This document shows positions 58,120 through 59,310 of a stretch of 64,000 nt of DNA, in pieces. This DNA comes from an uncultured Patescibacteria group bacterium (GTDB lineage Bacteria; Patescibacteriota; Minisyncoccia; Phycocordibacterales; UBA918). A model generated the notes under the pieces. It saw only the letters and a program-made list of their open reading frames with translations. It was not told the DNA's origin and did no database searches. A program made the translations under genes and the position numbers. Every line of letters starts with the position of its first letter. The first letter of the stretch is position 1. Where the stretch lies: assembly GCA_934699595.1 (NCBI GenBank), contig CAKUWT010000001.1, forward strand, positions 202,832 through 266,831, in the 5' to 3' direction.

Positions 58120-58187
58120 AGACGCTACCGAGTTGGTAGCGTCTCGTTGAAGTTGGCTGGGCAAAAGCTTTGCTTTCGCCCAGCGGG
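58120..58187 (-). terminator. Tandem hairpins plus T-run downstream of the GC-island gene
   Basis: GACGCTACC-gagtt-GGTAGCGTC (9 bp) and GCTGGGCaAAAGC-tttgc-GCTTTCGCCCAGC (13 bp, 1 mismatch), followed on the minus strand by tttttcttttttat. Confidence 0.45.
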
Positions 58188-58197
58188 TGAAGTCGGC

Positions 58198-58659
58198 CTA
58201 GGCCTTCTTCTTTTTCGAGCCAGGGGAGTTTCCCCCGCCACTCGCTCCGCGCATGGCAGCCCCACGAGCGCGATCCGCTTCGGACCGCTGCACACGCCGG
58301 ATGCGCGAGACCGTTTTCTTGGCCTTGCTCTCGGGCGACTCCGCCACCCGAACGTTCCCTGGGAACATCTCCGTGAGGCGCCGCTCGTGCTGCGCCTCAC
58401 GCGCGGCCTGGAGTGCTGCGGAGCGCTCCACCCAGAACTCGTTCCAGGTGCCGTGAAAAACGACGATCCGGCCGTCCGAGCTGTTCACCAGCCGCCAGAC
58501 GTGCGTCCAGCCACGACCCTGCAGGGGCGGCAACATCACGCAGTCGTAATGACTGGCCTTGTCGCACAGCTCGCTCATCACGGCCGTAACGGCCGACTCG
58601 TTTTCCCGCACGTCCCGCAGGTCAAAGAAAGCACTCTTGGTGATGTAGAAAACTTTCAT
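58198..58659 (-). CDS. Hypothetical protein (153 aa) encoded in GC-rich island 2, basic Gly/Lys-rich C-terminal tail
   Basis: A good SD (AGGAGAGAAGAG-ATG) before MKVFYITKSAFFDLRDV...; coding GC is visibly high (about 60% by eye); tail ...RARGAAMRGASGGGNSPGSKKKKA; no family recognised. The longer plus-strand ORF 58147..58782 is an Arg-rich antisense artefact. Confidence 0.4.
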   Translation of the reverse strand: MKVFYITKSAFFDLRDVRENESAVTAVMSELCDKASHYDCVMLPPLQGRGWTHVWRLVNSSDGRIVVFHGTWNEFWVERSAALQAAREAQHERRLTEMFPGNVRVAESPESKAKKTVSRIRRVQRSEADRARGAAMRGASGGGNSPGSKKKKA

Positions 58660-58848
58660 CTCTTCTCTCCTCAAGTTTCCAGAAACCGCTGGTATCCCGG
58701 CGCTGACCTCCCTGTCAGCAGAACAATGGGAATTAACCTCTTTGCCAATCCCTTAGTAATTTTTAAATTATTAACAACTTAAAAATTAGTAAGGAATGGC
58801 GACCGAATTAAAAATCCAGTCGCCACATTTTTCTCTAGACCGCAGTAT

Positions 58849-59034
58849 CTAACTGCGGTCAATCTCGTAGGGCGACTCGCCCACGGAGTGAACTCCGCCC
58901 CGGGGTCCGATCCAGTAGGTGGCACCCACCCGCCGGGTCAGCACCCTGAAGGTCTTCAGAGGCCCCCCCAGCTCCCGCAGTGAGTTCTCATCGGTGTCCT
59001 TCTGCCCCTCGGCAGCCATGGTCACGTCGGTCAT
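58849..59034 (-). CDS. Hypothetical small protein (61 aa) in GC-rich island 2
   Basis: SD GAGAGGG 7 nt before the ATG (MTDVTMAAEGQKD...); GC-rich; hairpin gaccgcagt-atctaa-ctgcggtc overlapping its stop. Confidence 0.3.
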   Translation of the reverse strand: MTDVTMAAEGQKDTDENSLRELGGPLKTFRVLTRRVGATYWIGPRGGVHSVGESPYEIDRS

Positions 59035-59310
59035 TTTTTGACCCTCTCATTAAACAGCGTCACTTCATCAATCCGCAGACGCTAACGCGGGAAAGTTTTT
59101 GCAGGATTGCAGGTTACTTTCAAACCCAAAGTATTGTATCAAAAAACTTTTTATCTGACCTCCAGGTTATCACACTTCTACATATTTGTCAAATAAGATA
59201 CCTTTGTTGGTGACCCAGCAATTAGAGTTTTTCGTCTTTTCCTTAGCTTATCTTGCATCCTACTTGGCTCTGAGACGGGTTCCGTTTTTGGGTATTTTGT
59301 TTATCTTTTT

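What the first reader, a model, noticed from the sequence alone, without database searches (positions are those of the whole stretch)
58120..59045. Second GC-rich island with two small unknown genes (153 aa with a poly-Gly/Lys tail, and 61 aa)
About 900 bp of clearly elevated GC lies between rpiB and a membrane protein gene. Both ORFs have good Shine-Dalgarno sequences. The opposite-strand long ORF has typical antisense GC-artefact composition (Arg-rich). The 153-aa protein ends in a basic Gly/Lys tail (...GASGGGNSPGSKKKKA), suggestive of nucleic-acid binding. The pair is bounded by hairpins on both sides. Two compositionally foreign mini-islands in 64 kb of an otherwise streamlined genome point to ongoing horizontal acquisition. 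A two-gene cassette of small proteins is the typical format of toxin-antitoxin or anti-defence modules, though no family is recognisable.
Basis: partly seen in the sequence, partly recalled or inferred. Interest (0 to 1): 0.6.

Follow-up and report, generated by a model that had tools for sequence, protein, structure and literature searches.

The report
GC-rich orphan small genes in CPR
Two small, separately transcribed protein genes of unknown function sit as sharp GC-rich blocks in a 46% GC Patescibacteria genome; the larger one belongs to a three-member family that keeps the same odd GC-rich coding sequence in other low-GC genomes, so it looks like a retained family trait and not a fresh import or a toxin-antitoxin pair.

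Summary
Two minus-strand ORFs, 153 aa (58198-58659) and 61 aa (58849-59034), are 64-66% GC with GC3 of 0.81 and 0.84. The window is 46% GC, and its 37 long ORFs have GC3 of 0.45 +/- 0.04. Both ORFs show codon periodicity and a Shine-Dalgarno sequence, and each has its own terminator hairpin. A spacer with a 25% GC core separates them.

The 153-aa protein has two detectable relatives among about 15 billion proteins (28-31% identity). Both lie in other 42-43% GC genomes. Both are GC3-rich (0.71-0.79), single-gene units with a conserved promoter and terminator, and neither has a partner gene. Those two relatives are syntenic orthologues, and the synonymous sites of their neighbouring genes are about 84% saturated. 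Neutral decay should therefore have erased an imported GC signal, so the GC-richness appears to be maintained.

No toxin-antitoxin, defence, phage, plasmid, Pfam, PDB or Rfam match was found. A RelE/ParE profile comparison gave 0.1% probability.

The conserved part of the protein is a basic Arg/Gly/Lys-rich C-terminal region. Nucleic-acid binding is inferred from that, not shown. The 61-aa ORF is a singleton orphan. Function and the cause of the GC-richness are both unresolved.

The parts
58119..58145 (-). Intrinsic terminator of the 153-aa gene: 11-bp stem, 5-nt loop, then TTTTCTTTTTT
   Evidence: terminator scan; I16
58156..58184 (-). GC-rich 13-bp hairpin starting 14 nt after the stop codon of the 153-aa gene
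   Evidence: I6 (92% complementary, 3-nt loop)
58198..58659 (-). p153: a 153-aa basic protein gene (pI 10.1, net charge +10, all of it in the C-terminal half). GC is 0.64, GC3 0.81, A at third codon positions 0.06. It is one of three members of a protein family.
   Evidence: Relatives P0005 and P0006. Sense frame is the coding frame.
58372..58401 (-). 13-bp hairpin inside the p153 coding sequence. It is not seen at the same place in the relatives.
   Evidence: I7
58667..58672 (-). Shine-Dalgarno sequence GAGGAG, 7 nt before the p153 ATG
   Evidence: read
58660..58725 (-). Moderately GC-rich (0.56) leader of p153 with small hairpins
58748..58797 (.). AT-rich inverted repeat (25-nt arms, 84% complementary; core CCTTACTAATTTTTAA / TTAAAAATTACTAAGG) between the p61 terminator and the p153 leader. 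It may be an operator or promoter region. Its function is unknown.
   Evidence: I1; GC 0.25
58797..58825 (-). Terminator-like hairpin after the 61-aa gene (13-nt arms, 85% complementary), followed by a T-rich stretch
   Evidence: I15; sequence
58849..59034 (-). p61: a 61-aa orphan ORF. GC is 0.66, GC3 0.84, A at third codon positions 0.05. It is a singleton among about 15 billion proteins.
59042..59048 (-). Shine-Dalgarno sequence GAGAGGG, 7 nt before the p61 ATG
   Evidence: read
59133..59141 (-). Candidate extended -10 element TGaTACAAT for p61. It was found by eye only and the promoter scan did not report it.
   Evidence: sequence; one search found no minus-strand promoter
58147..58782 (+). 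211-aa antisense ORF. It is a frame artefact of the GC3-rich sense gene.
   Evidence: the antisense alignment scores between the family members are -3 to -20, against 93 to 100 for the sense frame; no Pfam match.

Best explanation
The island holds two genuine small protein genes that are transcribed separately. It is not a cassette.

The 153-aa gene belongs to a very small family, with three 90%-identity clusters found in about 15 billion proteins. All three are in 42-46% GC, Patescibacteria-type genomes. The proteins are about 150 aa and basic. The N-terminal alpha/beta part evolves quickly. The C-terminal 60-70 residues are conserved and rich in Arg, Gly and Lys (motifs GN[VA]R[VI], R[IL]R[RK], E..[DE]R.R, RGA..GG, then a Lys-rich end).

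I infer that this tail binds nucleic acid (RNA, ribosome or DNA) and that the protein acts alone as a single-gene unit.

The GC-rich, third-position-A-avoiding coding sequence is a retained property of the family. It is kept inside low-GC genomes by some constraint on synonymous sites. The cause of that constraint is unresolved. mRNA stability or structure is the leading guess.

The 61-aa gene is a lineage-specific orphan with the same codon signature and unknown function.

What is shown: the genes are coding, the family exists, the GC3 state is conserved, and no partner gene is conserved. What is inferred: nucleic-acid binding and selection on the mRNA.
For: **Coding**
- GC periodicity is strong: p = 7e-8 for p153 and 3e-4 for p61.
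- Both have Shine-Dalgarno sequences.
- Differences between family members rank codon position 3 > 1 > 2 (0.48/0.36/0.27). Alignment scores are 298 in the sense frame and 187 in the antisense frame.
- dN/dS is 0.46 overall and 0.25 in the C-terminal part.

**Family**
- P0005 (159 aa): E 6e-4 in the exhaustive search, pairwise E 7e-10, aligned over the whole length.
- P0006 (149 aa): profile E 7e-25.
- All three have pI 10.1 and net charge +9 to +12, concentrated in the C-terminal half.

**GC-richness is retained**
- GC3 is 0.81, 0.79 and 0.71, against 0.30-0.52 for the neighbours.
- In the relatives, GC rises at the start codon and falls after the stop: upstream 0.30-0.31, CDS 0.59-0.62.
- P0005 and P0006 are syntenic (DUF192 | gene | RNase P RNA | TPR | MurJ | LepA).
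- Four-fold sites of their neighbours are 41% identical, against 29.5% expected at saturation. Neighbour GC4 is 0.34; the family gene has 0.82 and 0.79.
- Neutral decay, even from 100% GC4, predicts 0.60 (P = 0.004 and 0.012).
- No highly expressed gene in the window (rpoB/C, S2, S16, EF-Ts, L25, GAPDH) has GC3 above 0.52. Native translational codon bias is therefore not the cause.

**Stand-alone unit**
- Both relatives keep a TTGACT-17-TAATAT/TATCAT promoter with an upstream TG and a 12-13-bp terminator.

**mRNA folding**
- z = -2.8, -2.9 and -3.6 against dinucleotide shuffles.
Against: - The family has only three members, and the maintenance argument rests on a single orthologue pair with 38 four-fold sites.
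- If the gene's own synonymous identity is used as the clock (0.63 against 0.42 expected), decay from a donor with GC3 of 0.9 or more would leave 0.68-0.74. That is not clearly different from what is observed.
- GC1, GC2 and GC3 of both window genes are what I would expect, from general knowledge, for an ordinary gene of a roughly 65% GC genome. That fits a foreign origin.
- The RNA-structure support is weak. Synonymous-codon shuffles give z = -2.7, -1.9 and -2.2, while control genes range from +0.4 to -3.1. The three-sequence consensus fold has no net covariation.
- The structure models have low confidence (pLDDT 50-56).
- No binding function has been tested.
- In the window the leader 58660-58725 is also 56% GC, so the block is not strictly limited to the CDS there.
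- No consensus promoter was found for either window gene.
Confidence: 0.5

Rival explanations
1. This is a horizontally acquired islet. Both genes came together from an unsampled donor of about 65% GC (a bacterium, plasmid or virus) and have not yet drifted to the host composition.
For: - p153 and p61 are adjacent and have nearly identical base use at every codon position (A3 0.06/0.05, C3 0.36/0.37, G3 0.44/0.47).
- GC1/GC2/GC3 of 0.62/0.49/0.81 is what I would expect, from general knowledge, for genes of a roughly 65% GC genome.
- Both are singleton clusters, and p61 has no relative at all.
- None of 44 related Paceibacteria loci carries either gene.
Against: - No relative in any high-GC organism among 1.84 billion representative proteins, nor in phage or plasmid records.
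- The only relatives are in other low-GC genomes and are GC-rich there too.
- The spacer between the two genes has a 25% GC core, which an imported fragment from a 65% GC donor should not have.
- No integrase, tRNA or convincing border repeats.
- Syntenic orthologues keep GC4 near 0.8 although their neighbours are about 84% of the way to synonymous saturation.
Confidence: 0.27
2. This is a two-gene toxin-antitoxin or anti-defence module. p61 would be the antitoxin or regulator and p153 the toxin or effector.
For: - Two small adjacent genes lie on the same strand.
- A 50-nt AT-rich inverted repeat upstream of p153 could be an operator (I1).
- The low-confidence model has a beta-alpha-alpha-beta-beta-beta order of elements. 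From memory this resembles RelE/ParE. It is a lead only.
Against: - A terminator-like hairpin and 189 nt separate the two genes.
- The relatives of p153 have no partner gene and are monocistronic.
- p61 has no relative.
- Pfam, NCBIfam, PADLOC and PHROGs show nothing above noise.
- hhalign against a validated RelE/YoeB/YafQ/ParE alignment gives 0.1% probability.
Confidence: 0.06
3. The GC-rich blocks are non-coding. They would be a structured RNA or a decayed remnant, and the ORFs would be chance open frames in GC-rich DNA.
For: - GC-rich islands in AT-richer genomes are often RNA genes (general knowledge).
- The mRNAs fold better than shuffled sequence (z = -2.8 to -3.6).
- Island 1 in the same window does look non-coding.
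Against: - Three-base GC periodicity is strong in the annotated frame.
- ORF length and frame are kept in three relatives at 28-49% identity, with in-frame indels.
- The substitution pattern is position 3 > 1 > 2.
- Shine-Dalgarno sequences are present.
- There is no Rfam match.
- The consensus fold shows no net covariation.
Confidence: 0.05

Closest known systems
ORFan genomic islets attributed to horizontal transfer
   Same: A short stretch of atypical base composition carrying small genes with no known family, inserted between housekeeping genes.
   Different: The atypical composition follows the coding sequences and not the whole stretch. No mobility genes or donor homologues were found. 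In the relatives the atypical composition is conserved between syntenic orthologues and does not decay.
Type II toxin-antitoxin toxins of the RelE/ParE superfamily
   Same: Small size, two adjacent small genes, and an order of secondary-structure elements in the low-confidence model that loosely recalls the fold.
   Different: No sequence or profile similarity, no conserved partner, separate transcription units, and a 60-residue basic C-terminal extension that carries the family's conservation.
KGG-motif general stress proteins (YciG/GsiB type, Pfam PF10685)
   Same: A Gly-rich, basic, probably disordered stretch (RGAxxGGG...K), similar by eye to ...AGRKGGQxSGGN.
   Different: A YciG sequence recalled from memory matches the KGG model at E 8e-18. 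The family tails give no match even at E 10, and hhalign gives 0.2% probability. The family is not a member.
Small basic nucleic-acid-binding proteins with Arg/Lys/Gly-rich tails (general class; from general knowledge)
   Same: pI of about 10, positive charge concentrated in a conserved low-complexity C-terminal region, and a monocistronic gene with a strong promoter in the relatives.
   Different: No homology to any named member was found, and binding has not been tested. No other class I know of combines this with a GC-rich coding sequence held in low-GC genomes.

Membership tests
Type II toxin-antitoxin module (RelE/ParE type) | Two adjacent genes transcribed together as one operon | tested here: not met
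   The genes are separated by a 189-nt gap containing a 13-nt-arm hairpin (58825-58797), a T-rich tract and a 25% GC core. This is a sequence prediction only; there are no transcript data.
Type II toxin-antitoxin module (RelE/ParE type) | The partner gene is conserved next to homologues of the toxin | tested here: not met
   P0005 and P0006 lie between a DUF192 gene and RNase P RNA, with their own promoter and terminator and no small partner. p61 has no relative.
Type II toxin-antitoxin module (RelE/ParE type) | Sequence or profile membership in a toxin family | tested here: not met
   Pfam, NCBIfam and PADLOC give no match above noise. hhalign against RelE/YoeB/YafQ/ParE gives 0.1% probability. 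The reference alignment was validated against the PDB.
Type II toxin-antitoxin module (RelE/ParE type) | Toxin fold | tested here: inconclusive
Type II toxin-antitoxin module (RelE/ParE type) | Growth arrest that is neutralised by the partner | not testable with these tools
   This needs expression experiments.
Recently acquired horizontal-transfer islet | Base composition and codon use are atypical for the host | tested here: met
   GC3 is 0.81 and 0.84, against 0.45 +/- 0.04 in the window's long ORFs.
Recently acquired horizontal-transfer islet | The atypical composition covers the whole inserted segment, including its non-coding parts | tested here: not met
   The spacer core is 25% GC. In the relatives the upstream 110 nt are 30-31% GC.
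Recently acquired horizontal-transfer islet | Homologues exist in plausible donors or mobile elements | tested here: not met
   There are only two relatives, both in low-GC genomes. No match was found in phage records, plasmid records or viral contigs.
Recently acquired horizontal-transfer islet | Mobility signatures at the borders (integrase, tRNA, direct repeats) | tested here: not met
   No integrase is among the called genes. The only tRNA is at 43.9 kb. The border repeats are 10-11 nt and compatible with chance.
Recently acquired horizontal-transfer islet | The island is absent from the same site in close relatives | tested here: inconclusive
   In the 44 related loci fetched around YibE/F (50-64% identity) no rpiB match lies within the up to 8 kb of flanking DNA held for each locus, so no rpiB-yibE junction is available to compare. 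The organism itself is seen only in a single sample set.
Recently acquired horizontal-transfer islet | Composition decays toward the host value with time (amelioration) | tested here: not met
   The syntenic orthologues keep GC4 of 0.82 and 0.79, while neighbour GC4 is 0.34 and neighbour four-fold sites retain only 16% of their signal. This rests on one orthologue pair.
KGG-motif stress proteins (PF10685) | Match to the KGG repeat model | tested here: not met
Structured non-coding RNA | Match to a known RNA family, or a conserved structure with covariation and no coding signal | tested here: not met
   Rfam shows nothing above noise. The covariation term is +0.13. Codon periodicity is strong.
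Anti-phage defence or phage-derived gene | Match to defence (PADLOC) or phage (PHROGs, INPHARED) families | tested here: not met
   The best PADLOC E-value is 0.016, at 12 bits.

The most novel reading that the evidence does not exclude
A Patescibacteria-restricted family of small basic proteins has a coding sequence held at 70-80% GC3 (A3 below 10%) inside 42-46% GC genomes. It would be held there by selection acting on the nucleic acid itself. The possibilities include an unusually stable or structured, long-lived mRNA, a dual-function RNA, or a DNA-level role. On this reading the GC 'island' is a functional, heritable feature of the gene and not a scar of transfer. The neighbouring 61-aa orphan would be subject to the same constraint.
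Probability: 0.25. Interest if true: 0.65.

Novelty: new variant of a known kind. Interest (0 to 1): 0.45.

Why it matters
Atypical GC content is routinely taken as proof of recent horizontal transfer. Here the best available comparison suggests a small gene family that keeps a GC-rich coding sequence across speciation in low-GC, streamlined genomes. That would be a counter-example and would point to strong selection on synonymous sites in organisms usually thought to be dominated by drift and AT-biased mutation.

It also defines a new, very rare family of small basic proteins in the Candidate Phyla Radiation, with a testable conserved C-terminal motif.

If the ordinary reading is right and this is an unsampled high-GC donor, the locus is simply two orphan genes of unknown function.

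Tried and rejected
**Family and homology searches**
- Pfam, NCBIfam, PHROGs and PADLOC scans of p153, p61, P0005 and P0006 gave nothing above noise.
- PDB sequence searches with the family profile and with the C-terminal 68 aa gave nothing even at E 10.
- tblastn against phage and plasmid records gave nothing. The one plasmid hit, at E 0.5, is noise.
- p61 is unrelated to the p153 family (hhalign 0.2%).
- A profile HMM search of six-frame translations of all fetched loci (about 0.9 Mb) found only the known members.

**Structure**
- AlphaFold models reached pLDDT of 50 from the single sequence and 56 from the three-sequence alignment.

**Leads followed and rejected**
- The RelE/ParE lead from model topology was rejected by hhalign.
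- The KGG-tail lead was rejected.

**Collection scans**
- Metagenome and viral contig scans with the family alignments returned no confirmed locus. These scans were pattern-capped, so they are uninformative and not evidence of absence.
- The genome scan with YibE/F gave 44 Paceibacteria loci, but none keeps the rpiB-yibE junction, so no 'empty site' comparison was possible.
- An exact-protein look-up of RpiB found only the same sample.

**Alternative coding and RNA readings**
- The antisense ORFs (211, 216 and 202 aa) are present in all three loci and run on through the AT-rich upstream region. They were rejected as the coding frame on substitution pattern and alignment scores, and they have no Pfam match.
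- A conserved RNA structure is not supported. There is no net covariation, and the synonymous-shuffle z-scores fall within the range of control genes.
- There is no Rfam match in the island.

**Literature**
- A full-text search on GC-rich small genes in Patescibacteria found nothing relevant.
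Full report
**1. Observation**

The window is 46.1% GC. In 450-nt windows the mean is 0.460 with sd 0.038, and only two places exceed 0.58: about 33.4-33.6 kb and 58.05-58.33 kb (maximum 0.664).

The second island is two GC-rich blocks, not one. Segment GC values:
- 153-aa ORF, 58198-58659, minus strand: 0.639
- 61-aa ORF, 58849-59034, minus strand: 0.656
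- p153 leader 58660-58725: 0.56
- spacer core 58726-58796: 0.254
- rpiB: 0.49
- yibE: 0.47

Codon-position GC is 0.62/0.49/0.81 for p153 and 0.63/0.50/0.84 for p61. The 37 ORFs of 200 aa or more in the window have GC3 of 0.451 +/- 0.041, maximum 0.575. The two ORFs therefore lie about 9 sd out. The ORFs, their lengths, the Gly/Lys tail, the Shine-Dalgarno sequences (GAGGAG and GAGAGGG, each 7 nt from the ATG) and the hairpins are all present.

The flanking genes are RpiB and a YibE/F membrane protein. The contig is a Paceibacteria-type (Patescibacteria/CPR) MAG. Its YibE/F protein is 50-64% identical to proteins of Paceibacterota and Nomurabacteria MAGs. The same locus is present in independent ENA and Logan assemblies.

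**2. Are the ORFs real genes?**

For p153 the answer is yes.
- The three-base GC periodicity is strong (chi-square p = 7e-8).
- The gene has two relatives of the same length and layout (see section 3).
- Nucleotide differences between the relatives rank codon position 3 > 1 > 2 (0.48/0.36/0.27).
- The sense frame aligns far better than the antisense frame: 298 against 187 for P0005/P0006, and 93-100 against -3 to -20 for the window gene against the others.
- dN/dS between P0005 and P0006 is 0.46.

The long antisense ORFs (211, 216 and 202 aa in the three loci) lie in the frame whose first codon position pairs with the GC-rich sense third position. That removes stop codons.

For p61 the evidence is internal only: periodicity (p = 3e-4), a Shine-Dalgarno sequence and its own hairpin. 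It has no relative and is a singleton cluster.

**3. The p153 family**

The word-indexed search of 5.8 billion clusters returned only the protein itself. The exhaustive phmmer search of 1.84 billion representatives gave one credible relative, P0005. It is 159 aa, with E 6e-4, pairwise E 7e-10 and 29% identity over the whole length. The other two hits are repeat proteins. A profile of the two sequences then found P0006 (149 aa, E 7e-25).

All three proteins have pI 10.1 and net charge +9 to +12, located in the C-terminal half. Between P0005 and P0006 the two parts evolve differently:
- N-terminal part: 34% identical, dN/dS 0.71
- C-terminal 67 residues: 66% identical, dN/dS 0.25

The conserved core is therefore the Arg/Gly/Lys-rich region, with motifs GN[VA]R[VI], R[IL]R[RK], E..[DE]R.R, RGA..GG and a Lys-rich end.

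**4. Context of the relatives**

P0005 (JGI sample 3300010216; longest contig 762 kb) and P0006 (22 contigs from several sequencing runs) occupy the same position in two related genomes of 42-43% GC. The gene order is Fur, Zip, DUF192, the family gene, RNase P RNA, a TPR protein, MurJ, LepA.

Genes of these contigs are 35-55% identical to genes in the Paceibacteria loci, including a TPR-MurJ pair. These genomes are therefore probably Patescibacteria as well. This is inferred, not shown.

In both genomes the gene is a single-gene unit. It has a conserved TTGACT-17-TAATAT/TATCAT promoter with an upstream TG, a Shine-Dalgarno sequence and a 12-13-bp terminator. No small partner gene is present. 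The 140-aa 'gene' called downstream in L048 overlaps the RNase P RNA.

**5. The GC-richness is a property of the family**

P0005 and P0006 have GC3 of 0.79 and 0.71 in genomes whose neighbouring genes have GC3 of 0.30-0.45. GC rises at the start codon and falls after the stop: 0.30-0.31 upstream and 0.59-0.62 in the CDS.

The two genomes are old relatives. The neighbouring genes are 60-92% identical in protein, with pS of 0.53-0.79. At 1,251 four-fold sites of the neighbours, identity is 0.406 against 0.295 expected at saturation, so only about 16% of the signal is left. GC4 there is 0.34. The family gene has GC4 of 0.82 and 0.79.

A simple exponential decay with per-lineage retention of 0.40 predicts GC4 of 0.60 even from an ancestral 1.0 (P = 0.004 and 0.012), and 0.54 from 0.85. 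High GC is therefore better explained as maintained than as a fading import.

There are three caveats.
- The argument rests on one orthologue pair and 38 four-fold sites.
- If the gene's own four-fold identity is used as the clock (0.63 against 0.42 expected), decay from a donor with GC3 of 0.9 or more would leave about 0.68-0.74. That is not clearly excluded.
- Vertical descent at the locus is assumed.

Native translational codon bias is not the cause. The rpoB/C, S2, S16, EF-Ts, L25 and GAPDH genes in the window have GC3 of 0.42-0.48.

**6. Why GC-rich?**

This is unresolved. The three mRNAs fold better than dinucleotide shuffles (z = -2.8, -2.9 and -3.6, with 0 of 100 shuffles as stable). 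With synonymous-codon shuffles the z-scores are -2.7, -1.9 and -2.2, while control genes span +0.4 to -3.1. The consensus fold shows no net covariation.

Selection for a stable or structured mRNA is therefore possible but not demonstrated. p153 and p61 share an almost identical base use at each codon position. This fits either a common constraint or a common origin.

**7.

*Toxin-antitoxin or anti-defence module.* This is not supported.
- The two genes are predicted to be separate transcription units.
- No partner is conserved.
- There are no family hits.
- The profile comparison with a validated RelE/YoeB/YafQ/ParE alignment gives 0.1% probability.

*Horizontal acquisition.*
- There is no donor homologue.
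- There is no mobility signature.
- The spacer between the genes is AT-rich.
- The family state is conserved (section 5).
- An 'empty site' test was not possible, because no related genome found keeps the rpiB-yibE junction.

*KGG stress-protein tail.* I noticed this resemblance by eye, and it was rejected.

**8. Best reading**

The island holds two genuine, independently transcribed small genes. p153 is a member of a new, very rare, probably Patescibacteria-restricted family of basic proteins. Its conserved C-terminal Arg/Gly/Lys region most likely binds nucleic acid; this is an inference from charge and conservation only. Its GC-rich coding sequence is a retained family trait. p61 is a lineage-specific orphan with the same codon signature.

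Confidence in this reading is about 0.5. The main rival is import of both genes from an unsampled donor of about 65% GC, at about 0.27. The toxin-antitoxin and non-coding readings are each about 0.05.

**9. Novelty and interest**

No known family applies. The kind of object, a compositional islet of orphan small genes, is familiar. The unusual feature is the CDS-confined GC-richness that appears to be conserved across speciation in low-GC streamlined genomes.

I rate the finding a new variant of a known kind, with interest 0.45. It is limited by the tiny family, by the single orthologue pair behind the key argument, and by the lack of any functional handle.

**10. The other island is different**

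Island 1 (33472-33984) has no codon periodicity (p = 0.13). It folds with z = -6.4 on the minus strand (-256.6 kcal/mol) and z = -6.6 on the plus strand (-235.3 kcal/mol), and with z = -5.9 against synonymous-codon shuffles. It has no Rfam match. It may be an unrecognised structured RNA rather than the 170-aa secreted protein its ORF suggests. The phrase 'two foreign mini-islands' therefore groups two different things.

Noticed in passing
window 33472-33984 (island 1), with a hairpin at 34014-34069: This 62% GC block has a 170-aa ORF with a signal-peptide-like start and 8 Cys. It shows no codon periodicity of GC (0.62/0.57/0.67, chi-square p = 0.13). It folds far better than shuffled sequence: z = -6.4 on the minus strand (-256.6 kcal/mol), z = -6.6 on the plus strand (-235.3 kcal/mol), and z = -5.9 against synonymous-codon shuffles. 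There is no Rfam match and the protein is a singleton cluster. It may be a new structured RNA rather than a protein gene.
   Followed up: partly
L047 8581-9033 (+) and the aligned region of L048: An RNase P RNA (bacterial class A) scores 68.7 bits, below Rfam's gathering score of 100 (E 1e-20). It was missed at the gathering threshold. In L048 it was called as a 140-aa protein gene. It lies directly downstream of the p153-family gene in both genomes.
   Followed up: partly
window 58147-58782 (+); L047 7812-8462 (-); L048 7887-8495 (-): In all three family loci the antisense ORF stays open beyond the GC-rich CDS, for 38-63 further codons through the AT-rich promoter region. A rough chance estimate is about 6e-4, but it was made after the fact and two of the loci are related. 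Substitution patterns favour the sense frame, so dual coding was not pursued.
   Followed up: partly
window 58748-58797: A 50-nt AT-rich inverted repeat (25-nt arms, 84% complementary, no loop) lies between the p61 terminator and the p153 leader. It may be an operator or a bidirectional terminator (I1).
   Followed up: no
window 58372-58401: A 13-bp hairpin with a 4-nt loop lies inside the p153 coding sequence (codons for AREAQHERRLT). It is not conserved at that position in the relatives.
   Followed up: no
L042 8730-9245 (-): A 171-aa ORF with GC3 of 0.80 sits in a 50% GC Adlerbacteria contig right next to its YibE/F gene. It has a weak Pfam hit to 'NucS shadow ORF' (E 0.003), so it is probably an antisense shadow ORF.
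   Followed up: partly
L001 1-1100 (beyond the window's high-coordinate end): A 1655-aa protein with a weak Peptidase_S74 (tail-spike chaperone-like) hit is followed by four large genes with no Pfam match, upstream of GAPDH. This could be a surface or phage-like protein cluster.
   Followed up: no
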